Virus genome (UHGV): UHGV-0229940
Strand: one strand, 5' to 3'
DNA from: a virus
Length of the DNA stretch: 46,029 nt
The notes beneath the pieces are model-generated. The model was not told where the DNA came from. It did not search any database and was given only the letters and a program-made list of their open reading frames with translations. Each line of letters starts with the position of its first letter. Positions within the stretch are counted from its first letter, which is position 1. The translations under genes were made by a program, and so were the position numbers. This document shows positions 3,823-46,002 of the stretch, one piece after another.

Positions 3823-4166
3823 TACAGTTTCCTCATTAAATACTTTTTAAGTTGTGTGTTAGGTTTCTCAAAAACTTCTATAGAAGATATCTTAACAGAT
3901 TCACCACGCATACCTGTGTGTTTGAATATATAGTACTCTAACATCCCTATGTACTTTGCTGGTAAGTCATGCTTGACATACACCGTTACAGAATCTTCAA
4001 ATTCAACAACCTTTGTACCATCTTTGTAGTTAAACTCTTTAGGATGGTTGTAGTTGTCGATGTCGTACATTAAAAAGAGTCTTTTCCGTTGCATATCAAG
4101 CTTATTTGTTAAAGACTCTTTGATATCTGAGAAGTTTTTGTACACTGTGACATGGAGCTTACTCAT
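3822..4166 (-). CDS. hypothetical protein
   Basis: 114 aa ORF abutting the neighbouring genes. Confidence 0.55.
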   Translation of the reverse strand: MSKLHVTVYKNFSDIKESLTNKLDMQRKRLFLMYDIDNYNHPKEFNYKDGTKVVEFEDSVTVYVKHDLPAKYIGMLEYYIFKHTGMRGESVKISSIEVFEKPNTQLKKYLMRKL

Positions 4167-7871: not shown

Positions 7872-8035
7872 AGATAATCCTCTTGTCTTCTGTAATTTTG
7901 AAAGAACAGGTACAGACCAATTTCAGAGGATGAATAGTAGATTAACTCTACCCTTTTTGATTCCTTACAGTGATTGGTATTCTTACCTTTCTTCGGTTTA
8001 TTTGATTTTCTCATTAAGTCTCCTTTGTATAACAA
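7853..8035 (-). CDS. hypothetical small basic protein, first gene of the leftward operon
   Basis: 60 aa ORF directly downstream of a leftward promoter candidate. Confidence 0.3.
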   Translation of the reverse strand: MLYKGDLMRKSNKPKKGKNTNHCKESKRVELIYYSSSEIGLYLFFQNYRRQEDYLCVVPN

Positions 8036-8059
8036 GGCAGACCTACAGCTTTAAGTAAG

Positions 8060-8088
8060 ATGGTACAGTAATCCATACAACAAGTCAA
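8060..8088 (-). promoter_or_regulatory. sigma70-like leftward promoter candidate (TTGACT, 17 nt spacer, TACCAT)
   Basis: Reverse complement of 8083-8088 is TTGACT and of 8060-8065 is TACCAT, spaced 17 nt. Confidence 0.3.
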
Positions 8089-8263
8089 GAACTATTGCAA
8101 GTTAAAAAAGTTGTTGACAAAGTACTTGACAAGGTGTAGGCTTATAAATACTTAGAAGATAACTTAAAAGGTTCCTCTAAAAAGGCTATTTAAACAGATA
8201 TCTTTCTGGATATCTATCTTTTATCTTAAAAGCCTTTTAAGAGGTCTTATAAGAGGCATACCA

Positions 8264-8635
8264 ATGAAAAACAGAACAAACAAAGGCCAGTTTAAAAAAG
8301 GCCAATCTGGAAACCCATCTGGAAGACCAAAAGGCTCTCGCAACAAAAGCTCACTTGTAAAAGCTCAACTGACCATTGACAATTCTGCTGAGTTTGCTGC
8401 AAAGTTATTTGAAGCGATTGTTACAAGGGATGCTGCTAAGCTTGCAGAGTTCGGGTTAAACACAGATGACGTAACCATCAAGAGTATGATTGAGGTCGGT
8501 AAAACTATCTTTACTCACTCAGCAGGTGAGATGAAAGCACTTGCAGCAGACACTAAGAAGACTCCTGATAATGGTGGTCAACAACAGACAGATAACAAAC
8601 CAACGTTCTCTGCTGTAGCGACTCTTAAAAAATAA
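8264..8635 (+). CDS. hypothetical protein with N-terminal GNPSGRPKG motif (as I recall, a motif family widespread in phages; not checked)
   Basis: 123 aa; strong SD AAGAGG 8 nt upstream of ATG; motif KKGQSGNPSGRPKGSRNK. Confidence 0.65.
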   Translation: MKNRTNKGQFKKGQSGNPSGRPKGSRNKSSLVKAQLTIDNSAEFAAKLFEAIVTRDAAKLAEFGLNTDDVTIKSMIEVGKTIFTHSAGEMKALAADTKKTPDNGGQQQTDNKPTFSAVATLKK

Positions 8636-8716
8636 TTTTAAAAGGTGTTGACAGACTCTATAAAGTTGCTCTAAAGTCTGTCACATCAAACAACAAATGA
8701 GAGAAGAGAGTAAAAT

Positions 8717-10132
8717 ATGAGCGAGTTATTTAAACATGCGCACCTTCATGCAGGTCGAACTGAAAATGGTGCTGTAAACCATACTTCATCAATGTCTGCT
8801 CTGGTAGACTTCTACAAAGCCGCTGGCTCAAGCCGTAGCAATGTAGAAATCTTACCAGACCTGTTCTACAAAGCTTTGCGTGAGGATGTTGATGTTGCAG
8901 TTCGTATTTTACTGCATATGCGAGATGTACGAGAAGGTATGGGTGAGCGTAAAGCTTTCCGAACTGTTTTACTTCAAGCACTTGAAGACAAGGTTTTAGA
9001 GCCTACGCAGGTTCTTCGCATTATGGATAAGATTGCAGAACTTGGTCGTTTTGATGACTTCAAAATCTTCGTAGGTACTCGTTTCGAGACAGATGCCTTC
9101 AAACACCTAGAAGCAGCATTACTAGAACCTGCAACAGCAGGTTTGGCGGCTAAGTGGTTACCACGAGTCAAACCACGTCATAAGCAGTTTGTAAAACGTT
9201 TCTGCAAGTTTGCCAACTTGAGTGAGAAAGAGTACCGCACACTGTTGTCTGCACTATCTGATACAGTTGAGCAAAAAATCTCTGCTAATGAGTTTGGTAA
9301 GATTGACTACAGTAAGATTCCTTCACTTGCTGCTGCACGTTACCAAAAACTGTTTAACCGCAAAGATGGAGAACGCTACAAAGCTTACATCGAGTCCTTA
9401 TCAAAGGGTGAGACTAAGATTAATGCTGGTGCTGTTTACCCATACGATGTAATTAAATCTGTTAAGCATGGTAATGCAGATGTTGCTAATGAGCAGTGGA
9501 AAGCACTACCAAACTGGATGGCAGATGGTGAAAACATCTTGTGTATGTCTGATGTTTCAAGCTCAATGTCTTGGGTGAATTTTGGTTCAATTACTGCTCT
9601 TGATATTGGTGTTTCACTTGCATTGTATGTAGCAGAACGCAATACAGGTTGCTTCAAGGATGAGTTAATGGTTTATTCAACAAACCCTCACTTCATCGAA
9701 CTGAGTGGTGATTTACGAAACCGTCATCGTCAGGTGATGCGACATGTTGAATATGGCTCAACTAACTTACAAGCAGCTTTTGACCGCATTCTTGAGGTAG
9801 GTAAGAGAAACAACTTGACTCAGAAAGACATGCCAAGTAAGCTTATCATCTTCTCAGATATGGAGTTCAATCAGGTTGATGGAGCTAACGGTCGTACAAA
9901 CTTTGAAGCAATTCAGAGTAAGTACAAAAAAGCTGGGTACGAAATGCCTCAACTGGTATTCTGGTACTTAGCAAACCGTAATGGTACTTGCGAAGTGTCT
10001 GTTAAGGATAACGGTGTAGCAATGGTATCTGGTTTTTCTCCAGCTACTTTAAAAGCTCTGCTTGGTGGTGAGAAGTTTGACCCAATCAGTGTAATGCTCA
10101 AAGCAGTAATGATTGACCGTTACATCTGGTAA
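8717..10132 (+). CDS. von Willebrand factor A (vWA) domain protein with MIDAS motif; Ro60/TROVE-like two-part architecture is a hypothesis
   Basis: 471 aa; DxSxS MIDAS motif in ILCMSDVSSSMSW about residue 275; about 270 aa N-terminal region upstream of the vWA fold. Confidence 0.8.
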   Translation: MSELFKHAHLHAGRTENGAVNHTSSMSALVDFYKAAGSSRSNVEILPDLFYKALREDVDVAVRILLHMRDVREGMGERKAFRTVLLQALEDKVLEPTQVLRIMDKIAELGRFDDFKIFVGTRFETDAFKHLEAALLEPATAGLAAKWLPRVKPRHKQFVKRFCKFANLSEKEYRTLLSALSDTVEQKISANEFGKIDYSKIPSLAAARYQKLFNRKDGERYKAYIESLSKGETKINAGAVYPYDVIKSVKHGNADVANEQWKALPNWMADGENILCMSDVSSSMSWVNFGSITALDIGVSLALYVAERNTGCFKDELMVYSTNPHFIELSGDLRNRHRQVMRHVEYGSTNLQAAFDRILEVGKRNNLTQKDMPSKLIIFSDMEFNQVDGANGRTNFEAIQSKYKKAGYEMPQLVFWYLANRNGTCEVSVKDNGVAMVSGFSPATLKALLGGEKFDPISVMLKAVMIDRYIW

Positions 10133-10150
10133 AAAGTTTTAAAAAGGGTA

Positions 10151-10179
10151 TTGACAATGTGTTTGATACCCTTTAATAT
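10151..10179 (+). promoter_or_regulatory. sigma70-like promoter (TTGACA, 17 nt spacer, TAATAT) overlapping inverted repeat GGGTAT/ATACCC
   Basis: Consensus -35 at 10151-10156 and -10 at 10174-10179; lies upstream of the first tRNA. Confidence 0.55.
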
Positions 10180-10241
10180 GTTCTACATAGAAACGAAATG
10201 AGAGCTTTTCTAAGATACTGAAAAATATTTTAAAAAAGTTC

Positions 10242-10270
10242 TTGACAACCACTAAAAAATAATGTTAAAG
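10242..10270 (+). promoter_or_regulatory. second promoter-like TTGACA box followed by inverted repeat AACCACT/AGTGGTT
   Basis: TTGACA at 10242-10247; weak -10 candidates; 7 bp inverted repeat spanning the -10 region. Confidence 0.3.
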
Positions 10271-10297
10271 TGGTTACATAGAGTTTGAAAAGTTTAT

Positions 10298-10374
10298 CTC
10301 TGTTTAGCTCAGCTTGGTAGAGCGTTCCGTTTGGGGCGGTAAGGCCGGAGGTTCAAGTCCTCCAACAGAGACCA
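10298..10374 (+). tRNA. tRNA-Pro (anticodon TGG)
   Basis: Manual cloverleaf: acceptor CTCTGTT/AACAGAG, T-arm GGAGG-TTCAAGT-CCTCC, anticodon loop TTTGGGG, CCA encoded. Confidence 0.7.
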
Positions 10375-10381
10375 AATTAAT

Positions 10382-10456
10382 GTTCCAGTAGACAAAATGG
10401 TAAAGTCACCACTCTTTCAAAGTGGATATCTGAGGGTTCAAATCCCTTCTGGAACG
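10382..10456 (+). tRNA. tRNA-Glu (anticodon TTC)
   Basis: Acceptor GTTCCAG/CTGGAAC, anticodon stem CCACT/AGTGG, loop CTTTCAA. Confidence 0.7.
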
Positions 10457-10466
10457 CAAGTTTTGA

Positions 10467-10540
10467 CAGAAGACCAATTACAGCAAACTTAATCTACTCA
10501 TCTGACACGAAATCGGACAAAGAAGATATTTGGTCTGGTC
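10467..10540 (+). ncRNA. inter-tRNA structured spacer element, copy 1 (5' box CAGAAGACC-NNN-TACAGCAA, 3' box GGTCTGG; AGACCAAT pairs with ATTTGGTCT)
   Basis: Conserved boxes with a complementary flank whose sequence differs between copies while pairing is kept. Confidence 0.5.
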
Positions 10541-10549
10541 ATTGAGAAT

Positions 10550-10626
10550 TGCGGGTATAGAGAAAGGGCGTCTCACATGTCTCATTAGCATGGTATCGGC
10601 AGGTTCGACTCCTGCACCCGCCTCCA
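10550..10626 (+). tRNA. tRNA-Met (anticodon CAT); position 1:72 is a T:C mismatch
   Basis: T-arm GCAGG-TTCGACT-CCTGC, acceptor 3' ACCCGCC, anticodon loop CTCATTA, CCA encoded. Confidence 0.6.
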
Positions 10627-10632
10627 ATTTTG

Positions 10633-10694
10633 CAGAAGACCGTATTCAGCAACAAAATACTTTTTGCGGATAAAAGAAAAAACACGGTCTGGCA
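10633..10694 (+). ncRNA. inter-tRNA structured spacer element, copy 2 (AGACCGT pairs with ACGGTCT)
   Basis: Same CAGAAGACC ... CAGCAA 5' box and GGTCTGG 3' box as copy 1, with compensatory change in the pairing flank. Confidence 0.5.
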
Positions 10695-10703
10695 ATGTAT
10701 TAA

Positions 10704-10780
10704 GGTTAGGAAGCACATAAGGTATGTGCGGTCGCCTGTTAAGCGAATGGCACAGGGTTCGAATCCCTGACTAACCGCCA
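10704..10780 (+). tRNA. tRNA-Asn (anticodon GTT)
   Basis: T-arm CAGGG-TTCGAAT-CCCTG, anticodon loop CTGTTAA, CCA encoded. Confidence 0.7.
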
Positions 10781-10788
10781 AATTAAAT

Positions 10789-10876
10789 GTGTCGTTATCC
10801 CGTAGATGGTAGCGGTGGGGACTGTAAATCCCTTGTCATTGAGACTCGGTAGGTTCGACTCCTACACGGCACACCA
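10789..10876 (+). tRNA. tRNA-Tyr (anticodon GTA), long variable arm
   Basis: 88 nt; anticodon stem GGGGA/TCCCT, loop CTGTAAA; T-arm GTAGG-TTCGACT-CCTAC. Confidence 0.7.
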
Positions 10877-10881
10877 ATAAA

Positions 10882-10958
10882 GGCTATGTAGTTTAACTGG
10901 AGAAAATACTCCCCTGTCACGGGAGATGATGTGAGTTCAAGTCTCATCGTAGCCGCCA
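10882..10958 (+). tRNA. tRNA-Asp (anticodon GTC)
   Basis: Anticodon stem CTCCC/GGGAG, loop CTGTCAC; acceptor GGCTATG/CGTAGCC. Confidence 0.7.
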
Positions 10959-11019
10959 ATTTTGAGAGGGCTATTTAGCCCCTCCCTTAAAGAGTTCTTA
11001 CGAGTATTCTTTAAAGGAG

Positions 11020-11095
11020 CAGAAGACCAAATACAGCAAGAATGTATGAAATTTCAAGCCAATTTAATTTTGAAAATTTAAAACTTGGTCTGGCT
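11020..11095 (+). ncRNA. inter-tRNA structured spacer element, copy 3 (AGACCAA pairs with TTGGTCT)
   Basis: Conserved 5' and 3' boxes with covarying complementary flank. Confidence 0.5.
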
Positions 11096-11106
11096 CAACA
11101 AATTTA

Positions 11107-11238
11107 CAGAAGACCGTTTACAGCAAAACTTAAACAATCTATTTCTCCGGTAAAGAAAAGGCGAAGGTTCGATTCCTTCACTCGGCAGATGTCGAGTTGG
11201 TGTAATGGTAGCACTTAAGATGATAAACAACGGTCTGG
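11107..11238 (+). ncRNA. inter-tRNA structured spacer element, copy 4 (AGACCGTT pairs with AACGGTCT), enclosing a permuted tRNA-like segment
   Basis: Same boxes as copies 1-3; internal segment 11139-11214 has tRNA anticodon-arm, T-arm and acceptor-3' features followed by acceptor-5' and D-arm features. Confidence 0.45.
11139..11214 (+). pseudogene. permuted or fragmentary tRNA-like sequence (3' two-thirds precedes a complementary 5' acceptor and D-arm)
   Basis: Anticodon-like stem TTTCT/AGAAA, T-arm GAAGG-TTCGATT-CCTTC, acceptor-3' ACTCGGC, then GTCGAGT (pairs with ACTCGGC) and D-arm GTGTAATGGTAGCAC. Confidence 0.35.
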
Positions 11239-11241
11239 TAA

Positions 11242-11257
11242 TTATCTTTGTAGATAA
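11242..11257. repeat. palindromic hairpin TTATCT-TTGT-AGATAA (left copy)
   Basis: Exact reverse complement of the copy at 11366-11381. Confidence 0.6.
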
Positions 11258-11365
11258 GTTATTAAGCTTACCTGTGAGTATGCGACCACAAAGGGTGAAA
11301 GGGTAAATTCTAGATTTAAACCCAAAAAGGCACATCGCTACAGACCTTAAGCAAGTCTGGGTAGC

Positions 11366-11381
11366 TTATCTACAAAGATAA
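11366..11381. repeat. palindromic hairpin TTATCT-ACAA-AGATAA (right copy, inverted relative to 11242-11257)
   Basis: The two copies bracket a 108 bp segment. Confidence 0.6.
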
Positions 11382-11387
11382 TTTAAT

Positions 11388-11463
11388 GGAAGTGTAGCAG
11401 AATGGTGATGCGGCAGACTTTTAATCTGACAGGCGATGGGTTCGAATCCCTCCACTTCTACCA
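11388..11463 (+). tRNA. tRNA-Lys (anticodon TTT)
   Basis: Anticodon stem CAGA/TCTG, loop CTTTTAA; acceptor GGAAGTG/CACTTCT; CCA encoded. Confidence 0.6.
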
Positions 11464-11467
11464 ATAT

Positions 11468-11544
11468 GGTTCAGTCGCAGATAAGGTAATGCAAGGGTCT
11501 CATAAGCCCTATGAATGTGGGTTCGATTCCCATCTGAACCTCCA
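11468..11544 (+). tRNA. tRNA with CAT anticodon (Met, initiator or Ile-lysidine type; GGG/CCC run in anticodon stem)
   Basis: Perfect acceptor GGTTCAG/CTGAACC, anticodon loop CTCATAA, T-arm GTGGG-TTCGATT-CCCAT. Confidence 0.7.
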
Positions 11545-11545
11545 A

Positions 11546-11621
11546 GCTGGTATAGTTAAGAAGGTTATAACACTCCCCTGATAAGGGAACATCGGTGGTT
11601 CGATTCCACCTACCAGTACCA
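11546..11621 (+). tRNA. tRNA-Ile (anticodon GAT)
   Basis: Anticodon loop CTGATAA; T-arm GGTGG-TTCGATT-CCACC. Confidence 0.65.
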
Positions 11622-11636
11622 ATTTCAATAAAGTTG

Positions 11637-11665
11637 TTGACATTGAGATGTGACTACTTTATAGT
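11637..11665 (+). promoter_or_regulatory. strong sigma70-like promoter inside the tRNA array (TTGACA, 17 nt spacer, TATAGT)
   Basis: -35 at 11637-11642, -10 at 11660-11665. Confidence 0.6.
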
Positions 11666-11868
11666 AACCTTAGTTTTCGTTGCGTAGCGTCTATTTTGCA
11701 AATTTAAAATAAATGCAAACGACAATGTTTTTCTGGCAGTAGCTTGATAGGCTAAACACCAGTGAGGTCTTCCAATCCCTCATCAAAGAATTTGGCGTAC
11801 TAGCCCACGGTATGATTAATAAGGTGGGCATCTTTAAGGGCTTTCTAAGAGAGTCTTTAAAGATTAAT
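11666..11868 (+). ncRNA. about 200 nt promoter-proximal non-tRNA spacer; candidate small stable RNA
   Basis: No ORF and no tRNA fold found; contains stem GCCCAC/GTGGGC (about 11789-11814); downstream of the promoter at 11637. Confidence 0.3.
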
Positions 11869-11945
11869 GCACCCTTAGTTCAATTGGATAGAGCAACGGT
11901 CTTCTAAATCGTTAGTTACAGGTTCGAATCCTGTAGGGTGTGCCA
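11869..11945 (+). tRNA. tRNA-Arg (anticodon TCT)
   Basis: D-arm GTTC-AATTGGATA-GAGC, anticodon stem ACGGT/ATCGT, loop CTTCTAA. Confidence 0.7.
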
Positions 11946-12087
11946 ATTAGTTAGCAGATTACTTAGACGACCTAAGCGGGTCTTCCTGTAGGGAGGTGGT
12001 CTGTATCTCATGTTTTCCAGAACATGTAAATAATCTGAGAAGGGGCTTTACAGTGTTGAGATAATACGGTAAGCTTCGAATTATAAT

Positions 12088-12170
12088 ATGGGACGATGTT
12101 AAGACTCTAAGGCATGAGCAACGGCCTCCAAAACCGTTTCAAAGGGGTTCAACTCCTCCGTCCCATGCCA
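12088..12170 (+). tRNA. tRNA-Trp-like (anticodon CCA) with about 7 extra nucleotides between acceptor and D-arm
   Basis: Perfect acceptor ATGGGAC/GTCCCAT, anticodon stem ACGG/CCGT, loop CTCCAAA; total about 80 nt without CCA. Confidence 0.5.
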
Positions 12171-12183
12171 AAGTCTTATTAGG

Positions 12184-12271
12184 GGTAGGTAGCGGCTAAT
12201 GGTAGCCAAACTGTCTTGAAAACAGTTGCCACTGTAGAGATACGGTGAGGGTTCGACTCCTTTACTTACCG
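12184..12271 (+). tRNA. tRNA-Ser (anticodon TGA), long variable arm
   Basis: Anticodon stem ACTGT/ACAGT, loop CTTGAAA; 88 nt. Confidence 0.7.
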
Positions 12272-12429
12272 CCTAATAAGGTTTAAAGCCAAGCTTCATT
12301 CGGATGTTGCTTTGGTATCCCTCGTGTATTGTCGTACAAGCACAGTAAAGCACCTAGTAGGTGTCACGGAGAAGAGATAATATCAAGCTCTCCAAAGGTT
12401 CTAGTCACCGGATTAAACAAGACTATGCA

Positions 12430-12451
12430 AAGACCTTTTTAGGTCTTTTTA
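12430..12451 (+). terminator. terminator-like hairpin inside the tRNA array (AAGACC-TTTTTA-GGTCTT then T-run)
   Basis: 6 bp perfect stem followed by TTTTT. Confidence 0.4.
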
Positions 12452-12529
12452 GAGGGCTTCTAAGGTTATTACAGCTTGTTGTGGAACCTTGTTGCTTAGG
12501 TTCTTAGAAGTTCTCTAAAAAGATTTAAT

Positions 12530-12607
12530 GGGAGATTGACGGTAATTGGTAAACCTACCATCCTTAGAAGTTGGTGTTTGAGGGTTCGAATCCCTTGTCT
12601 CCTACCA
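12530..12607 (+). tRNA. tRNA with anticodon TAG (Leu decoding) but short variable arm
   Basis: Acceptor GGGAGAT/GTCTCCT, T-arm GAGGG-TTCGAAT-CCCTT, anticodon loop CTTAGAA; 78 nt. Confidence 0.5.
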
Positions 12608-12614
12608 AATTAAT

Positions 12615-12690
12615 GCAGGTGTAGCAAAATGGTTATGCGGCTGACTCTTAATCAGTAAGACGATGGGTTCAATTCCCTCCACCTGTACCA
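12615..12690 (+). tRNA. tRNA-Lys (anticodon CTT)
   Basis: Anticodon stem GCTGA/TCAGT, loop CTCTTAA; paralogous to the Lys-TTT gene. Confidence 0.6.
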
Positions 12691-12696
12691 GACATT

Positions 12697-12772
12697 GGGG
12701 ATGTAGTTTACATGGTTAAAACATAAGTTTTGCAAACTTAAGTACAGGGTTCAATTCCCTGCTTCTCCACCA
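12697..12772 (+). tRNA. tRNA-Ala (anticodon TGC) with G3:U70 identity pair
   Basis: Anticodon stem TAAGT/ACTTA, loop TTTGCAA; G at position 3 opposite T at position 70. Confidence 0.7.
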
Positions 12773-12778
12773 ATTAGT

Positions 12779-12853
12779 GCATCCATAGTTTAAACGGGAA
12801 AATTACAGTCTTCCAAACTGAGGTTGAGGGTTCGATTCCCTCTGGATGCTCCA
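12779..12853 (+). tRNA. tRNA-Gly (anticodon TCC)
   Basis: Perfect acceptor GCATCCA/TGGATGC, anticodon loop CTTCCAA. Confidence 0.7.
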
Positions 12854-12860
12854 AATTAAT

Positions 12861-12937
12861 GCTGCTTTCGTATAATTGGCTATTACACATCCCTTGTAAG
12901 GATGGAAATGCGGGTTCGAGTCCTGTGAGCAGCACCA
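12861..12937 (+). tRNA. tRNA-Thr (anticodon TGT)
   Basis: Anticodon stem CATCC/GGATG, loop CTTGTAA. Confidence 0.7.
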
Positions 12938-13032
12938 ATTCAGAGGTCAAGTGAAAGACCGCTGGTGTCAACTGAAGACCGTAACAAATTCCACGGAGTT
13001 GAGTTAGCGGCACAACTTCAGACCTCTTTCAC

Positions 13033-13107
13033 ACTCGCTTAGTTTATATGGTAAAACATCACCCTTACAAGATGAAGAAAAAGGTTCAAGTCCTTTAGTG
13101 AGTACCA
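13033..13107 (+). tRNA. tRNA-Val (anticodon TAC)
   Basis: T-arm AAAGG-TTCAAGT-CCTTT, anticodon loop CTTACAA. Confidence 0.6.
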
Positions 13108-13108
13108 T

Positions 13109-13186
13109 GTTCCAGTATCCCAATTGGCAGAGGATGCAAGCTCAAACCTTGTATTAGTGACGGTTCGAATCCGTCTTGGAACACCA
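13109..13186 (+). tRNA. tRNA with anticodon CAA (Leu decoding) but short variable arm
   Basis: Acceptor GTTCCAG/TTGGAAC, T-arm GACGG-TTCGAAT-CCGTC, anticodon loop CTCAAAC. Confidence 0.5.
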
Positions 13187-13191
13187 ATTTT

Positions 13192-13267
13192 GCAGGATTA
13201 GTTCAAATGGATAGAGCAACAGTCTACGAAGCTGTTAATAGGGGTTCGAATCCCTTATCCTGCGCCA
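13192..13267 (+). tRNA. tRNA-Arg (anticodon ACG)
   Basis: Perfect acceptor GCAGGAT/ATCCTGC, anticodon loop CTACGAA. Confidence 0.7.
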
Positions 13268-13284
13268 GATAAAAAGGTGATACT

Positions 13285-13527
13285 ATGCAAACATTAACAG
13301 TAGTTGAACATGAAAACTGTGAGAATATTGAGTTTGTCAGGGTCATTGGTGTTGAACACCACATTTTCTTAAAAGTAGGGTACTTATGTGACCCCGCTAG
13401 AGTAGAAAGATTTATACGTGATTGTTTTGGTGGTAGACAGCTAAAGAGTGTTATTTTTGAGACAGTTTTACCAGAAGGTTTAGAAACGAATAATAACATT
13501 TATCTCCTTACAAGGATTAGACGATGA
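13285..13527 (+). CDS. hypothetical protein encoded inside the tRNA array
   Basis: 80 aa ORF with SD AAAGGTGA upstream. Confidence 0.5.
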   Translation: MQTLTVVEHENCENIEFVRVIGVEHHIFLKVGYLCDPARVERFIRDCFGGRQLKSVIFETVLPEGLETNNNIYLLTRIRR

Positions 13528-14081
13528 GATATTTAAAATATGCTTCATGGATTTTCCTAGCTTTGCTAGAACCATTAGCAGCAACCTTAGCAGTTATCTT
13601 AGCACCTTTCGTAGTTCCATTTTACAGTGAGAAGAAAGGCCACTTACCTTTCGGATTTAGATGGATGGAGACATATGACAACCCAATTGATGGTGACGAA
13701 GGTCATATCGAACGATGGGCTAAGATTAGAAAGATTGGTAAGCTGGGTGTCTACATGCAGAGAGTCGGATGGCTCTGGAGAAACAAAGCTTATAACTTCT
13801 CTTACCATGTATTAGGAAGAGATGTAAAAGATGTTACTAAGTGGAAAGGTAATATCAACGTAAGTTCTGACCCTGAAGATAATCAGACAGGTTATCTCCT
13901 AATGTGGAACAGTAATGCTTGGGGATTATTCGCTTTTATCCCATCAATTAAAGTCTTTGGTAAACAGTTTTACTGGAGAATTTATATTGGATGGAAACTA
14001 AAAAGTGTTGTCCCAGAAGAAAGAGCATTCTCAAGGGAAAGAGTTATGTTGGCATTCTTTATTCATCCACTGAGAAAGTAA
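13524..14081 (+). CDS. hypothetical membrane-anchored protein encoded inside the tRNA array
   Basis: 185 aa; N-terminal hydrophobic segment ASWIFLALLEPLAATLAVILAPFVVPF; 4 nt overlap with the upstream ORF. Confidence 0.6.
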   Translation: MRYLKYASWIFLALLEPLAATLAVILAPFVVPFYSEKKGHLPFGFRWMETYDNPIDGDEGHIERWAKIRKIGKLGVYMQRVGWLWRNKAYNFSYHVLGRDVKDVTKWKGNINVSSDPEDNQTGYLLMWNSNAWGLFAFIPSIKVFGKQFYWRIYIGWKLKSVVPEERAFSRERVMLAFFIHPLRK

Positions 14082-14089
14082 AGATTTAA

Positions 14090-14165
14090 AGGGGATTAGT
14101 TTACAAGGTTAAAACCTCGGTCTTTGAAATCGAAGAAGTTGGTTCAATTCCAACATCCCCCGCCA
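14090..14165 (+). tRNA. tRNA-Gln (anticodon TTG), weak 1:72 pair
   Basis: D-stem GTTT/AAAC, anticodon stem TCGGT/ATCGA, loop CTTTGAA. Confidence 0.65.
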
Positions 14166-14167
14166 AT

Positions 14168-14246
14168 GCTCCATTACTCCAATTGGCAGAGAGGCCAGAC
14201 TTAAAATCTGTGTTATGTATCGGTTCGAATCCGATATGGAGTACCA
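14168..14246 (+). tRNA. tRNA with anticodon TAA (Leu decoding) but short variable arm
   Basis: Acceptor GCTCCAT/ATGGAGT, T-arm ATCGG-TTCGAAT-CCGAT, anticodon loop CTTAAAA. Confidence 0.5.
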
Positions 14247-14251
14247 AATTT

Positions 14252-14327
14252 AGCGGTATAGCATAACTGGCAATGCAACAGTCTCTGAAGCTGTCCTATT
14301 AAGGTTCAAATCCTTATGCCGCTGCCA
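14252..14327 (+). tRNA. tRNA-Gln (anticodon CTG)
   Basis: Anticodon stem ACAGT/GCTGT, loop CTCTGAA. Confidence 0.6.
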
Positions 14328-14358
14328 CTTCTAAGGGTTCTTACGAGAGTCCTTAAAT

Positions 14359-14434
14359 GTGGCCTTATCATAAATGGTAATGACCCATGCTGTGAACATG
14401 GTCTATACGGGTTCAAATCCCGTAGGTCACCCCA
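14359..14434 (+). tRNA. tRNA-His (anticodon GTG)
   Basis: Anticodon stem CCATG/CATGG, loop CTGTGAA; T-arm ACGGG-TTCAAAT-CCCGT. Confidence 0.7.
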
Positions 14435-14439
14435 ATTTA

Positions 14440-14516
14440 TAGTCCAAGTAGCTTATATGGTTAAAGCGCGTGTCTGAAAAACATGAGAAGAGGGTTCAAA
14501 TCCCACTGGACTACCA
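14440..14516 (+). tRNA. tRNA-Phe (anticodon GAA)
   Basis: Perfect acceptor TAGTCCA/TGGACTA, anticodon loop CTGAAAA. Confidence 0.65.
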
Positions 14517-14532
14517 ATTTCAAAGGTGCTTA

Positions 14533-15267
14533 ATGAAAGAGATGACAGAACAAGGTAAGGAGATTTTTAATCTCTTAAAAACCGGTAAAGGGTTTTCTAA
14601 CCCACTTATTACTGGTGCAGCAGTTCTCGGTGGAACCGTAGCTGCTTCTACATCACTTGTAAGCTCTATTAGTTCTGTAACAGACCCTACAATGCAGGAG
14701 AAACTTGTTGCTGCTGGACTTACAACAGTCCTTCTAAACAGCTTTACAACAAGCCTTACAAGCACTACAGCAACTACTAAGACCCTGACAGACTACGGTC
14801 AAAAATCTATTGATGAGTTTTCATCACGTATGCAGGTAGCAAAGGGATATTCCAATGTTATGGGTGCAGCAGGAGAACAAGTTGGTTGTACACCGTTCAG
14901 TGGTATTATGGGTGTTGCTACAGAATATGGTCAAAAAGCTATTGATACGATTAACAGTACACTAGAGAGTGTTAACGATGTATTAAGTGACTTACAAGAC
15001 GCTATTGACAAGGGTCTTGATACTGTTTCTGATTTAGCTAACCAAGCTGTCAGTAAGATTAATGAAGGTATCTCAAAGATTACAGCTTATGCAGATGAAG
15101 TTGTGCAGATGATTGAAGAAGAAGCTGCCCTTATTGCAGAGTACCTTAAAACGAATATCAATGGGTTCTTAGCAGGTATCTTACCAGACTGGTTTGATGA
15201 TGCCTGTAAAACTGGTGTAATTGACACTATTGCAACACCAGAAATGAAGAACGCATTACAGAAATAA
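14533..15267 (+). CDS. hypothetical Ser/Thr-rich protein encoded inside the tRNA array
   Basis: Six-frame ORF 14470-15267 would overlap two tRNAs, so start is placed at Met 14533 (MKEMTEQ ...); 244 aa. Confidence 0.6.
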   Translation: MKEMTEQGKEIFNLLKTGKGFSNPLITGAAVLGGTVAASTSLVSSISSVTDPTMQEKLVAAGLTTVLLNSFTTSLTSTTATTKTLTDYGQKSIDEFSSRMQVAKGYSNVMGAAGEQVGCTPFSGIMGVATEYGQKAIDTINSTLESVNDVLSDLQDAIDKGLDTVSDLANQAVSKINEGISKITAYADEVVQMIEEEAALIAEYLKTNINGFLAGILPDWFDDACKTGVIDTIATPEMKNALQK

Positions 15268-15361
15268 TGGAAGATTAACCCTAAAAGGTAAGGGAGCAGT
15301 TTGCTAAACTGCCAGTAGCTGAGAAATCGGTGTACCAGTTCAAGTCTGGTATCTTCCTCCA
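15268..15361 (+). tRNA. tRNA-Ser (anticodon GCT), long variable arm
   Basis: Perfect acceptor GGAAGAT/ATCTTCC, anticodon stem GCAGT/ACTGC, loop TTGCTAA; 94 nt. Confidence 0.7.
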
Positions 15362-15365
15362 ATTT

Positions 15366-15441
15366 GAATCCGTGACAGAAATGGCTATGTGCCTGTCTGC
15401 AAAACAGGTTTATAAGGGTTCGAGTCCCTTCGGATTCTCCA
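15366..15441 (+). tRNA. tRNA-Cys (anticodon GCA)
   Basis: Perfect acceptor GAATCCG/CGGATTC, anticodon stem CCTGT/ACAGG, loop CTGCAAA. Confidence 0.7.
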
Positions 15442-41711: not shown

Positions 41712-42071
41712 TTATGGGAACAAGCACTTAATGTCATCGTTTTTGAAAACGAAACTTGTGTAGTTGTGACCATCAACATCTAGCCAAACAGCCTGAACAT
41801 CTACACCATCAAGATTCTGGTAAAGCTCTTTGATGAAGTGGTCTTTCACAATCTGGCTGCTAGTTGTTTCCAGCTTAATGTTCGAGATTGCTGAACCTAC
41901 AGCCATATAACCCATGACACGTTTCTTCTCAGTATGCTTAATCTTACCATCTTTGTAAGCCATAATGAGATTGGAGAGAATCTTCACACCATAATACTTT
42001 TCAAGGTGAGTAGGTACGCCATAAAAGCCTAATGCGAAGTTTTCAGAGTGGATAATGTTTTCACGTTTCAT
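41712..42071 (-). CDS. hypothetical protein
   Basis: 119 aa ORF. Confidence 0.55.
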   Translation of the reverse strand: MKRENIIHSENFALGFYGVPTHLEKYYGVKILSNLIMAYKDGKIKHTEKKRVMGYMAVGSAISNIKLETTSSQIVKDHFIKELYQNLDGVDVQAVWLDVDGHNYTSFVFKNDDIKCLFP

Positions 42072-44972: not shown

Positions 44973-45000
44973 AGTATACTCACCAAATTTTCTATGTCAA
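44973..45000 (-). promoter_or_regulatory. sigma70-like leftward promoter (TTGACA, 16 nt spacer, TATACT) within an inverted repeat
   Basis: Reverse complement of 44995-45000 is TTGACA and of 44973-44978 is TATACT; overlaps inverted repeat GGTGAGTA/TACTCACC. Confidence 0.55.
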
Positions 45001-45006
45001 CAACTT

Positions 45007-46002
45007 TTATTCATAATCTCGTATAACTAACCCAACAGGGAACTGTAAAGACCCCTTACGAGTCATCTTCTGGAACTGAACCGTTAAAGGTTTCCCGATA
45101 AATTCTTCAGGATGCTCAGCAAGATACTGTTTCTTCTCGTGTGTAGTTTTCCATGAAACATCTACAAAGACGTTAGGAAGAGTCTCTACAACGAACTTAC
45201 CATGACCACGTTTATCAGTCTTTACACCAGTCACTTTAAACTCTTCAGTGTGCATCTTCTTGTGCTTAATCAAGAAGTATGAACGGTGACCACACTCATA
45301 GAAAGATTCTTCAGAGATTGAACGGTACATTGCACCTTCAAACTTAGCTTCAACCCACTTATCATGAGCTTCATCAAACTCTTCCCAAGAATTTACACGG
45401 ATAGTCTGTACAGGAACAACTCTACAGGTATCCCCAAGCTCAACAATAGGTGAGTTATCAATAACTTCACGACGCTCAGGCCAAGATTTTGAATTGTCAC
45501 AGATATCATACCAGTAGAATTTAAGAAGGTGACGGTCTGGATTGTCAGCATTCTTAATCATAGATACAATATCTTCTAAGTCCCAACCATGAGCATAAAT
45601 CTCTCCGTCAAAGTCTTCAACTTGCGGATGTAGTTTAAGCAACAAAAGCAAATCTGGGATTAGTTCTGTTGGAACGTTGTAAACAGTATTCTCACGAGAA
45701 TAAGCTGTGAAACTGACTGAATCAGCATCTCTTGAAATTCTACAACGGACACCATCAAGTTTTGGTTGAGCATCAGCAGGGAACTTCAGATACTTTGCAT
45801 GACTAACCTTTGCAGCATCATGAGCAAGCTGTACACCTACCTTCTCAGTATTCTGTGCAGACTCTTTTGTGTAAGCATAACCTTTGCGGTCAACTTGCTT
45901 TTTATACTTAGCAGCAACTTCAAAGAGGGCTTGCTGTTCAGCGTTACGCTCATTCTTTTTACCGATGTTTTTAGGTTCTGCTGTATACTCTTCAAACATC
46001 AT
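45007..46002 (-). CDS. ATP-dependent DNA ligase
   Basis: 331 aa; nucleotidyltransferase motif I KLDGVR (adenylation lysine) about residue 82. Confidence 0.75.
   Translation of the reverse strand: MMFEEYTAEPKNIGKKNERNAEQQALFEVAAKYKKQVDRKGYAYTKESAQNTEKVGVQLAHDAAKVSHAKYLKFPADAQPKLDGVRCRISRDADSVSFTAYSRENTVYNVPTELIPDLLLLLKLHPQVEDFDGEIYAHGWDLEDIVSMIKNADNPDRHLLKFYWYDICDNSKSWPERREVIDNSPIVELGDTCRVVPVQTIRVNSWEEFDEAHDKWVEAKFEGAMYRSISEESFYECGHRSYFLIKHKKMHTEEFKVTGVKTDKRGHGKFVVETLPNVFVDVSWKTTHEKKQYLAEHPEEFIGKPLTVQFQKMTRKGSLQFPVGLVIRDYE

What the first reader, a model, noticed from the sequence alone, without database searches (positions are those of the whole stretch)
8717..10132. vWA/MIDAS protein encoded immediately upstream of the tRNA array
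The 471 aa product has a clear DxSxS MIDAS motif (DVSSSMS) in its C-terminal half and a roughly 270 aa N-terminal domain. That layout resembles Ro60/TROVE-type RNA-binding proteins, whose bacterial and phage orthologs are known to sit beside tRNA-like non-coding RNAs. Here the gene is followed by two promoter boxes and then about 27 tRNAs plus several non-tRNA structured RNAs. This could be an RNA quality-control or anti-defence module tied to the phage tRNA repertoire.
Basis: partly seen in the sequence, partly recalled or inferred. Interest (0 to 1): 0.65.

Follow-up and report, generated by a model that had tools for sequence, protein, structure and literature searches.

The report
Phage Ro60-like protein with partner RNAs
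The gene encodes a phage relative of the RNA-binding autoantigen Ro60, and the tRNA array beside it holds four small RNAs of a widespread, apparently undescribed phage family whose design matches the "Class I" RNAs so far thought unique to social amoebae.

Summary
The window is a Felix O1-like coliphage. ORF 8717-10132 (+) encodes 471 aa with an intact MIDAS motif (DVSSSMS) and sits 166 nt upstream of 26 co-oriented tRNAs.

What seems new is the RNA partner. Four modules in the array (10464-10541, 10630-10695, 11017-11096, 11104-11241) share a covarying clamp helix followed by single-stranded UUACAGCAA. The fourth also holds a permuted, YrlA-like tRNA-like domain.

The same module lies beside DUF2828 genes or inside tRNA arrays in phages of Proteobacteria, Firmicutes, Actinobacteria and Campylobacter. 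It is always on the gene strand (67:0 by strict pattern, 62:0 by covariance model).

Its design equals dictyostelid Class I RNAs. A model built only from amoeba sequences finds 43 phage hits, all on the gene strand. Protein-RNA binding and the function remain untested.

The parts
8264..8635 (+). Upstream co-oriented gene, 123 aa, DUF5681, with its own extended promoters at 8107-8131. A neighbour, not shown to belong to the system.
8641..8677 (+). Promoter-like site of the Ro-like gene (AAAGGTGTTGACA, 18 nt, TAAAGT).
8717..10132 (+). Ro60-like protein gene, 471 aa. Family DUF2828+DUF7788, PHROG 850. Orthologue of Bas63 gp130.
8717..9511 (+). N-terminal alpha-helical repeat domain (aa 1-265), the TROVE-like part of the fold. 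It has many invariant Arg/Lys residues (R40, R69, R72, R78, R111, K146).
9536..10081 (+). vWA domain (aa 274-455, DUF7788). The MIDAS motif DVSSSMS is at nt 9551-9571, with T349 and D381 completing it.
10143..10271 (+). Two promoter-like sites (10151-10179 and 10242-10271) ahead of the tRNA/sRNA array. The first lies inside a 12-bp hairpin at 10143-10174.
10298..15441 (+). Array of 26 tRNA genes, all on +, interrupted by the RNA modules and three small ORFs.
10464..10541 (+). RNA module 1, between tRNA-Glu and tRNA-Met. Layout: outer stem TGAC/GTCA, AGA bulge, clamp AGACCAA/TTGGTCT, then UUACAGCAA.
   Evidence: (R1 E 2.2e-4)
10630..10695 (+). RNA module 2, between tRNA-Met and tRNA-Asn. Clamp AGACCGT/ACGGTCT, then AUUCAGCAA.
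   Evidence: Rfam Dicty_Class_I 24 bits; R1 E 2.7e-5
11017..11096 (+). RNA module 3. Clamp AGACCAA/TTGGTCT, then AUACAGCAA.
   Evidence: R1 E 3.6e-4
11104..11241 (+). RNA module 4. It has the same clamp and UUACAGCAA, and encloses a permuted tRNA-like body: anticodon/V-like arm 11142-11158, T arm 11163-11179 (GAAGG UUCGAUU CCUUC), 7-bp acceptor-like hairpin 11180-11197, D arm 11199-11215.
11630..11665 (+). Internal promoter-like site of the array (AAAGTTGTTGACA, 17 nt, TATAGT; 11 of 12 consensus positions).

Best explanation
The gene encodes a phage paralogue of Ro60: a ring of helical repeats closed by a vWA/MIDAS domain. The protein belongs to the DUF2828/DUF7788 family. Its likely ligands are small RNAs encoded next to it.

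In this phage, four such RNAs are embedded in the tRNA array. They are transcribed from the array's own promoters and are probably cut out by the enzymes that mature the flanking tRNAs. Each RNA has a helix that clamps its 5' and 3' ends. The sequence of this helix varies freely while its pairing is kept. An invariant single-stranded (U)UACAGCAA follows directly after the 5' strand. One of the four also carries a circularly permuted tRNA-like body like that of bacterial YrlA Y RNAs.

I infer that the protein recognises the clamp plus the ACAGCAA element, as Ro60 recognises the conserved Y RNA stem. I infer further that the resulting particles act on RNA turnover or repair, or on host nucleases, during infection, with the tRNA-like domain serving as a handle or decoy for tRNA-directed enzymes.

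Shown here by computation: the fold, the intact MIDAS motif, the RNA family with its covariation, and its strand-specific linkage to the gene and to tRNA arrays. Shown by others: the 97%-identical Bas63 gp130 overcomes the Ppl defence. Inferred only: that protein and RNAs bind each other, and what the particle does.

For: Orthology: 97% identity and the same synteny as Bas63 gp130. That protein is a Ppl counter.

RNA in the window: 4 motif copies against 0.05 expected, with a common fold.

RNA across phages: by the strict pattern there are 67 modules on the gene strand and 0 on the other strand in 83 loci. Nine decoy hexamers give 0-3, and 50 of the 67 modules lie within 500 nt of the gene. 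Six of the 7 clamp pairs show double changes. A model trained only on metagenomic loci finds the window's modules (E 2.7e-5 to 3.6e-4) and modules in Yersinia, Aeromonas, Campylobacter, Mycobacterium, Listeria, Staphylococcus and Vibrio phages. Its 62 hits in the metagenomic loci are all on the gene strand.

Reverse test: starting from the RNA pattern alone, 29 of 54 stem-forming loci hold the gene on the same strand. Twenty of the other 25 lie in tRNA arrays. Of the 24 chance loci, only 1 has any tRNA.

tRNA-like domain: T arm, then hairpin, then D arm in many long modules, with sub-threshold Rfam YrlA matches.
Against: No binding data exist for any member of this family. gp130 alone, expressed from a plasmid or inserted in T7, restored T7 growth on the Ppl strain, so at least that activity does not need the phage's own RNAs. 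The Pfam TROVE profile does not match. The RNA motif differs from the GGUCCGA/GNCGAA motif of Y RNAs. Twenty-five of the 54 motif-first loci show no gene in the stored stretch, so another partner is possible. The clamp pairing was itself a selection criterion for the covariation alignment. The window's own modules score only 15-30 bits in the covariance models.
Confidence: 0.7

Rival explanations
1. The protein works alone as a protein-level inhibitor of a host defence such as Ppl, for instance through its MIDAS face. On this view the neighbouring hairpin RNAs only regulate or titrate it, for example as autoregulatory operators, and are not functional partners.
For: gp130 alone rescues T7 on the Ppl strain. 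In some phages a 32-33 nt mini-hairpin with ACAGCAA lies about 30 nt before the gene's start codon (L016, L021, L023). In Vibrio phage XZ1 the motif lies in the 5' leader, as expected for an operator.
Against: In the window the modules sit 330-1100 nt downstream of the gene, behind separate promoters and between tRNAs. Many loci have 3-9 tandem copies. Some copies carry elaborate tRNA-like domains. Amoebal RNAs of the same design are abundant, stable cytoplasmic RNAs.
Confidence: 0.15
2. The modules are cis-acting punctuation of tRNA arrays, such as processing, folding or termination signals. They would have nothing to do with the Ro-like protein, and the adjacency would only reflect that both sit in the same early region.
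For: Modules 1 and 2 are wedged between tRNAs with 3-8 nt spacers. In 20 loci found by motif alone, the modules lie inside tRNA arrays with no Ro-like gene in the stored stretch.
Against: Of the first 60 metagenomic loci holding the gene, 36 have no tRNA within 4 kb. Across all 75 such loci, the modules cluster within 500 nt of the gene. There is no U tract after the hairpins. The invariant part is single-stranded sequence, which is typical of a protein-binding site. Two of the 'no gene' stretches come from contigs that carry the gene elsewhere.
Confidence: 0.08
3. The protein is an ordinary vWA/MIDAS adaptor, for example a co-chaperone for assembly, and the Ro60 resemblance is superficial.
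Confidence: 0.03
4. The likeness to dictyostelid Class I RNAs is convergence or chance, not shared ancestry or a shared protein partner.
For: The RNAs are short and the shared sequence is only about 9-11 nt. No phage module reaches the Rfam gathering score for RF01414, which is 41.5 bits; the best is 28.9. I could not check whether Dictyostelium has a DUF2828 protein.
Against: All defining features coincide: the clamp joining the ends, the motif position, the AAG start and CUG(U) end, the 45-65 nt length, and the A-rich 3' interior. A model built only from 27 amoebal sequences gives 43 hits in the phage loci. All are on the gene strand, and nearly all fall at the modules already found.
Confidence: 0.3

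Closest known systems
Ro60/Rsr with Y RNAs (Xenopus Ro60-Y RNA; Deinococcus Rsr-Yrn1; Salmonella Rsr-YrlA/YrlB)
   Different: There is no match to the Pfam TROVE profile, and identity to solved Ro60s is 11-16%. The conserved RNA element is UUACAGCAA next to a covarying clamp, not GGUCCGA/GNCGAA. The window's module 4 gets no Rfam YrlA hit, and relatives score 22-39 bits against a threshold of 69.
Bas63 (JohannRWettstein) gp130, PhageMaP preprint PMC11482910
   Same: It is the orthologue: 97% identical, same length, and the same position ahead of tRNA-Pro/Glu/Met. That paper already reports the structural likeness to Ro60, the position upstream of the tRNAs, the guess that Y RNAs hide among the tRNAs, and an anti-Ppl phenotype.
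   Different: The paper names no RNA. Here the candidate RNAs are located, and they are present in Bas63 as well. They are spacer modules, not any of the annotated tRNAs.
Thermus phage phiLo Ro60 with Yrl1/Yrl2 (PMC12135203)
   Different: phiLo Ro60 is a canonical TROVE protein, and its RNAs were picked by a CGAA motif. It is not associated with a tRNA array.
Dictyostelid Class I RNAs (Rfam RF01414; Kjellin et al. 2021, PMC7919456)
   Same: The architecture is the same: a 6-7 bp stem joining the 5' and 3' ends whose sequence covaries, the motif (C)CUUACAGCAA directly after the 5' strand, an AAG start, a CUG(U) end, a length of 42-65 nt, and a variable A-rich interior. The models cross-detect in both directions. 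A few amoebal members even carry a T-arm-like hairpin.
   Different: The amoebal RNAs are stand-alone eukaryotic genes with a DUSE promoter, and they were reported as unique to Dictyostelia and tied to multicellular development. The only proven direct binder is the RRM protein Rnp1A/CIBP. Phage modules stay below the Rfam threshold. The window's copies add an outer stem and an AGA bulge.
Mycobacteriophage 'Ro-like RNA binding protein' (e.g. LeBron gp53, Crossroads gp55)
   Same: It belongs to the same protein family: 33% identity over the full length, E 1e-77. Three modules lie directly downstream, including a YrlA-like one.
   Different: Only annotation and an overexpression toxicity phenotype are known. 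There is no tRNA array next to the gene in Crossroads.

Membership tests
Ro60 / TROVE protein family | Ring of HEAT-like helical repeats followed by a vWA domain | tested here: met
Ro60 / TROVE protein family | Sequence match to Pfam TROVE (PF05731) | tested here: not met
   No TROVE hit at E<=1 for the protein or at E<=10 for any of 34 homologues. No PDB sequence hit by phmmer or by profile.
Ro60 / TROVE protein family | Ro60-type vWA domain with MIDAS motif | tested here: inconclusive
   The MIDAS signature DxSxS...T...D is invariant. Pfam vWA_Ro60 (PF25045) matches only 7 of 34 homologues, best E 4.7e-4, and not the window protein.
Ro60 / TROVE protein family | Bound to Y RNA through a conserved stem (GGUCCGA / GNCGAA) | tested here: not met
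   No Y_RNA or YrlA hit in the window at E<=1 to 10. The adjacent RNAs carry a different conserved element. Physical binding cannot be tested here.
DUF2828 + DUF7788 proteins (PHROG 850) | Pfam PF11443 and PF25043 above gathering score; full-length PHROG match | tested here: met
   103.7 bits against a cut-off of 29, and 149.3 bits against 27.1. PHROG 850 matches 1-471 of 476, E 5.9e-183. 710 phage records hold a homologue.
Anti-defence protein gp130 of Bas63 (Ppl counter) | Orthology by sequence and synteny | tested here: met
   457 of 471 residues identical; same neighbours on both sides.
Anti-defence protein gp130 of Bas63 (Ppl counter) | Relieves the Ppl defence | not testable with these tools
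   Known only from the preprint.
YrlA Y RNA-like family (Rfam RF02553) | Permuted tRNA-like domain: (V), T arm, closed acceptor-like stem, D arm | tested here: met
   Module 4: arms at 11142-11158, 11163-11179, 11180-11197 and 11199-11215. The same order is seen in 8 or more long modules of other phages.
YrlA Y RNA-like family (Rfam RF02553) | Score at or above the Rfam gathering threshold (69 bits), including the GNCGAA stem | tested here: not met
   Window: no hit. Relatives: 21.6-38.9 bits, in which the tRNA-like core aligns and the outer stems do not.
Class I RNA (Rfam RF01414) | Short stem joining the 5' and 3' ends, structure conserved but not sequence | tested here: met
   Clamps AGACCAA/TTGGTCT and AGACCGT/ACGGTCT in the window. 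Six of 7 pairs covary across phages.
Class I RNA (Rfam RF01414) | 11-nt motif CCUUACAGCAA directly after the 5' strand; AAG start; CUGU end | tested here: met
   Window: AUUACAGCAA, UAUUCAGCAA, AAUACAGCAA and UUUACAGCAA, each in the same register, with ...GGUCUG at the 3' side. Phage consensus: AAAGG....UUACAGCAA....CCUG. Definition taken.
Class I RNA (Rfam RF01414) | Score at or above the Rfam gathering threshold (41.5 bits) | tested here: not met
   Window 10638-10691: 24 bits. Best phage module: 28.9 bits. My own amoeba-only model gives 14.7-14.9 bits, which are the two top hits of the window.

The most novel reading that the evidence does not exclude
The phage ACAGCAA-clamp RNAs and the Class I RNAs of dictyostelid amoebae are one RNA family. 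They would be the cognate ligands of DUF2828-type Ro60 paralogues wherever those proteins occur, in phages and in eukaryotes; DUF2828 proteins are reported in plants. If so, Class I RNAs are neither unique to Dictyostelia nor intrinsically about multicellularity. The uncharacterised protein DDB_G0281243, which was pulled down with Class I RNA DdR-21, may be the amoebal DUF2828 protein. The Arabidopsis and Capsaspora candidates that the authors dismissed may be real.
Probability: 0.4. Interest if true: 0.9.

Novelty: new variant of a known kind. Interest (0 to 1): 0.8.

Why it matters
Ro60 and its Y RNAs are conserved from bacteria to humans, yet what they do is still poorly understood. Phage Ro-like genes are annotated in hundreds of genomes with no known RNA partner.

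Pinning down a specific, easily recognised RNA family next to these genes makes three things directly testable:
- the anti-defence activity reported for Bas63 gp130;
- the role of the non-tRNA spacers in phage tRNA arrays;
- the meaning of the permuted tRNA-like domains.

If the link to amoebal Class I RNAs holds, a 20-year-old orphan RNA class would gain a candidate protein partner and an evolutionary origin. The claim that it is restricted to social amoebae would then fall.

Tried and rejected
- Sequence searches of the protein and of its family profile against PDB chains found nothing relevant, so only fold comparison shows the Ro60 link.
- I first dismissed the Rfam hit 'Dicty_Class_I_RNA' at 10638-10691 (E 0.67) as chance. 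It proved meaningful only after the motif had been found independently.
- A loose hairpin+CAGCAA scan had a high background (199 against 99 on the two strands; decoy motifs 41-128). A 7-bp rule allowing G-U pairs was still noisy (148 against 42). Only the fixed register with an AGR start was clean (67 against 0).
The tRNA-like domain therefore rests on inspection and on sub-threshold Rfam YrlA matches.
- The GGCGAAG string before the T arm of module 4 looked like the YrlA GNCGAA motif. It is part of the T stem and is not conserved in relatives, so I dropped it.
- Avesson 2011 and Aspegren 2004 are not held in the library.
- The supplements of Kjellin 2021 do not describe DDB_G0281243.
- I found no way to pull a Dictyostelium DUF2828 sequence out of the protein search tools, because only the best 120 hits are listed and all of them are phage proteins.
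- The neighbouring ORFs are DUFs that add nothing.
- I did not test canonical TROVE phages for the module.

Full report
**1.

The window is a Felixounavirus (Felix O1-like coliphage). Region 8000-11000 is 96-98% identical to many such phages.

ORF 8717-10132 (+) encodes 471 aa. DVSSSMS is at aa 279-285. In 34 homologues D279, S281, S283, T349 and D381 are invariant, so the MIDAS motif is complete.

Twenty-six co-oriented tRNA genes follow at 10298-15441, and there is one odd tRNA-like element at 12088-12170.

Two promoter-like boxes lie between the gene and the array. They belong to an extended motif, AAARKNNTTGACA, with 6 copies in the window against 0.35 expected. Five of these copies lie at 8107-11642 on +. 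So the gene and the array have their own promoters.

**2. The protein**

Pfam assigns DUF2828 (1.4e-29) and DUF7788 (1.3e-43), and not TROVE. PHROGs gives family 850, 'RNA-binding protein' (5.9e-183). Sequence searches against PDB chains find nothing.

An AlphaFold model built from 34 homologues is confident, with pLDDT 87.5 and pTM 0.88.
- By Foldseek, the 12 best PDB matches are all Ro60/TROVE proteins aligned over their full length (E 5e-9 to 1e-6). After them come only isolated vWA domains.
- Seven of 34 family members weakly match Pfam vWA_Ro60.

The protein is therefore a Ro60-fold protein from a sequence family separate from TROVE. The family occurs in 710 GenBank phage records, among them:
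- mycobacteriophages, where it is annotated 'Ro-like RNA binding protein';
- Listeria, Staphylococcus, Enterococcus, Bacillus and Campylobacter phages;
- Vibrio, Aeromonas and Sinorhizobium phages, and cyanophages.

**3. Already in the literature**

Bas63 gene 130 is 97% identical and lies in the same place. The PhageMaP preprint reports four things:
- gp130 resembles Ro60 structurally;
- it sits just upstream of the tRNAs;
- some 'tRNAs' may in fact be Y RNAs;
- it counters the Ppl defence, also when moved into T7 without any Bas63 RNA.

**4. The partner RNAs in the window**

Four spacers of the array share AGAAGACCNNNTWCAGCAA at their 5' side (4 matches against 0.05 expected) and GGTCTGG at their 3' side. 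All four fold alike: a 4-bp outer stem, an AGA bulge, a 7-bp clamp (AGACCNN/NNGGTCT), then a 3-nt linker and CAGCAA left single-stranded.

Modules 1 and 2 are wedged between tRNA-Glu/Met and tRNA-Met/Asn with 3-8 nt to spare. tRNA processing would therefore release them.

Module 4 (11104-11241) encloses, in this order:
- a 5-bp/7-nt arm;
- a T arm (GAAGG UUCGAUU CCUUC);
- a 7-bp acceptor-like hairpin closed by a tetraloop;
- a D arm.

That is a circularly permuted tRNA, the design described for YrlA.

**5. The module travels with the gene**

The same design lies next to the homologous gene in several distant phages:

| Phage | Protein identity to the window | Modules |
|---|---|---|
| Yersinia phage P778 | 54% | 3; clamps GGACTG, GGATTC, GGACTC |
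| Aeromonas phage 4_4572 | 43% | about 9 |
| Campylobacter CPX | 37% | 2 |
| Mycobacteriophage Crossroads | 33% | 3 |
| Listeria LP-124 | 29% | 3 |
| Staphylococcus phage S-CoN_Ph16 | 31% | 3 |

In Vibrio phage XZ1 the motif lies in the gene's own leader.

In 83 loci that are not Felix-like (789 kb), I applied a strict pattern: an AGR-led 7-bp clamp, 3 nt, then CAGCAA. It occurs 67 times on the gene strand and never on the other strand. Nine decoy hexamers give 0-3 hits. Fifty of the 67 modules lie within 500 nt of the gene. In the window the pattern finds exactly the four modules.

In an alignment of 25 short modules, six of the seven clamp pairs show changes on both sides (57 compensated cells). 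Slid controls pair in only 30-49% of cells. Pairing was a selection criterion, so this shows free variation of the helix sequence rather than independent proof of pairing.

A covariance model trained only on metagenomic loci (R1) performs as follows:
- It finds three of the window's modules, with E 2.7e-5 to 3.6e-4. The fourth, with its 110-nt insert, is missed.
- It finds modules in seven of eight GenBank loci, and also in Bas63.
- It gives 62 hits in 75 metagenomic loci, all on the gene strand, 37 of them outside the training set.

**6. Reverse test**

I scanned IMG/VR with the RNA pattern alone and obtained 80 loci.
- 54 loci have a closing stem. Of these, 29 hold a DUF2828 homologue in the stored stretch, always on the same strand and usually within 850 nt.
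- Of the remaining 25, 20 have 2-12 tRNA genes within 1.5 kb.
- Of the 26 chance matches without a stem, 2 have weak gene hits. Only 1 of the 24 stem-less loci without the gene has any tRNA.

The module is therefore tied both to the gene and to phage tRNA arrays. Conversely, only 24 of the first 60 metagenomic gene-bearing loci have a tRNA within 4 kb. The RNA module is thus a steadier neighbour of the gene than tRNAs are.

**7. Relation to YrlA**

Many long modules hold a T arm, then a hairpin, then a D arm. Rfam's YrlA model matches them below threshold:
- L084: 38.9, 28.7 and 25.2 bits;
- L007: 21.6 bits;
- threshold: 69 bits.

In these matches the tRNA-like core aligns and the outer Ro-binding stems do not. 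The window's module 4 gets only a weak tRNA hit.

These RNAs therefore work like YrlA in their tRNA mimicry, but they carry a different protein-recognition module.

**8. Relation to Class I RNAs**

Rfam RF01414 (Class I RNA of Dictyostelium) has the consensus GaUcuC CUUACAGCAA ... GagAuC UG. It gives sub-threshold hits on the window's module 2 (24 bits) and on modules of other phages.

Kjellin et al. 2021 define Class I RNAs by these features:
- a short stem joining the ends, whose structure but not sequence is conserved;
- an 11-nt motif next to the 5' strand;
- an AAG start and a CUGU end;
- a length of 42-65 nt.

They report the class as unique to Dictyostelia. The phage consensus, auaAAGGuUgcUUACAGCAA...gcAaCCUGaUa, meets every one of these points.

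I built a model from 27 published amoebal sequences only. In 835 kb of phage loci it gives 43 hits at E<=1. All are on the gene strand, and nearly all fall at the modules already found; the best is 29.8 bits, E 5.9e-5. In the window its two top hits are modules 2 and 1.

Some amoebal members carry T-arm-like hairpins.

The DdR-21 pull-down recovered GuaB, NdkC, Rnp1A/CIBP and DDB_G0281243, a protein of unknown function. I could not establish whether that protein, or any Dictyostelium protein, belongs to DUF2828. DUF2828 proteins are reported in plants. The authors' own outgroup table lists an Arabidopsis candidate with a high score that they set aside.

**9. Mechanism**

The most likely picture has three steps:
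- The ring protein binds the clamp plus the ACAGCAA element of RNAs released from the array.
- The tRNA-like domain of module 4 recruits or distracts tRNA-directed enzymes.
- The resulting particle alters RNA turnover or a host nuclease, as phiLo Ro60 with its Yrl RNAs attenuates PNPase.

Linkage to RtcB, RNA ligases and a CCA-adding enzyme in other phages fits a role in tRNA damage and repair.

The main caveat is that gp130 alone suffices against Ppl in T7. The RNAs may then regulate the protein, extend its function, or serve another purpose. In several phages a mini-hairpin sits just before the gene's start codon, which suggests autoregulation as one role.

**10. Verdict**

The gene is a known kind, and its orthologue is already characterised. 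The associated RNA family, its spread through phage tRNA arrays, and its identity of design with amoebal Class I RNAs were not found in Rfam 15 or in the searchable literature.

Everything about binding and function is inference and needs the experiments listed under next steps.

Noticed in passing
window 12088-12170 (+): A tRNA-like element that ARAGORN misses. It has an 8-bp acceptor stem, an oversized D region, a 5-bp anticodon stem with a 9-nt loop (CCUCCAAAA, containing CCA), and a normal T arm. It is conserved in Yersinia phage P778 (L002, about 12414-12497). It could be an unusual tRNA-Trp or another tRNA mimic.
   Followed up: partly
window 11250-11373, 11946-12089, 12438-12529, 12938-13032 (+): Other spacers of the tRNA array fold into long hairpins with energies well below shuffled controls (z -3.3, -2.75, -3.6 and -3.0). 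The spacer downstream of the internal promoter (11622-11768 folded, z -1.7; it runs to tRNA-Arg at 11869) has no assignment either. None of them carries the ACAGCAA motif.
   Followed up: partly
L091 (Bas63) 10749-11023 and 11450-11590; window 11078-11335 (-) and 11691-11831 (-): Small minus-strand 'hypothetical protein' CDSs annotated in GenBank records lie over the RNA modules and spacers. They are probably spurious calls over non-coding RNA genes. Some records call the same region tRNA-OTHER or a pseudo-tRNA.
   Followed up: no
L016 3950-3990, L021 1760-1799, L023 2855-2894, L003 7960-8010: In some phages a 32-33 nt mini-version of the module, or the bare UUUUACAGCAAUUAAUU, lies about 30 nt upstream of the start codon of the Ro-like gene. 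This suggests that the protein binds its own mRNA leader.
   Followed up: partly
L005 (Cronobacter phage S13) 9895-10015 and 10025-10137; L004 5494-5610: These 'tRNAs' of 113-121 nt have a normal acceptor stem with CCA, a D arm and a T arm, but an expanded anticodon/variable region holding (U)AUUCAGCA or UUACAGCAA. They carry the same motif grafted into an unpermuted tRNA body.
   Followed up: partly
L105 about 3940-4080 (-) and L171 332-407 (+): Two contigs labelled as giant-virus MAGs carry modules with closing stems. L105 has two in tandem. L171 has one, followed by a tRNA-like D arm and a 590-aa ORF with an N-terminal vWA domain that is not DUF2828.
   Followed up: partly
window 41850-41909 (-): The phage-trained model gives one extra hit (E 0.0086): GGCUGU AGG UUCAGCAA ... 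GCAGCCAG, inside the coding ORF 41712-42071 (-). It is either chance or a binding site within an mRNA.
   Followed up: partly
Supplement of PMC7919456 (files 48 and 56): Dictyostelid Class I RNAs asu_can_20 and ppa_can_99 contain T-arm-like hairpins (GGUUCGAUCC, GGUUCGAAUCC). The outgroup candidates ath_can_1 (Arabidopsis, CM score 40) and cow_can_1 (Capsaspora) have the clamp plus UUACAGCAA but were dismissed by the authors.
   Followed up: no
window 8107-8131, 8641-8653, 10235-10247, 11630-11642 (+), 44995-45007 (-): An extended promoter signature, AAARKNNTTGACA (6 copies against 0.35 expected), marks this early region. The upstream DUF5681 gene (8264-8635) has two overlapping copies.
   Followed up: partly
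L008 (Listeria LP-124) 9404-13116; L004 13071-13994; L005 14280-15320: RNA repair and tRNA maturation genes (an RtcB-like ligase, RNA ligases, a CCA-adding enzyme) lie within a few kb of the Ro-like gene in other phages. This echoes the bacterial rsr-yrlA-rtcBA operon. No such gene was found in the part of the window examined here (about 5.7-17.5 kb).
   Followed up: no
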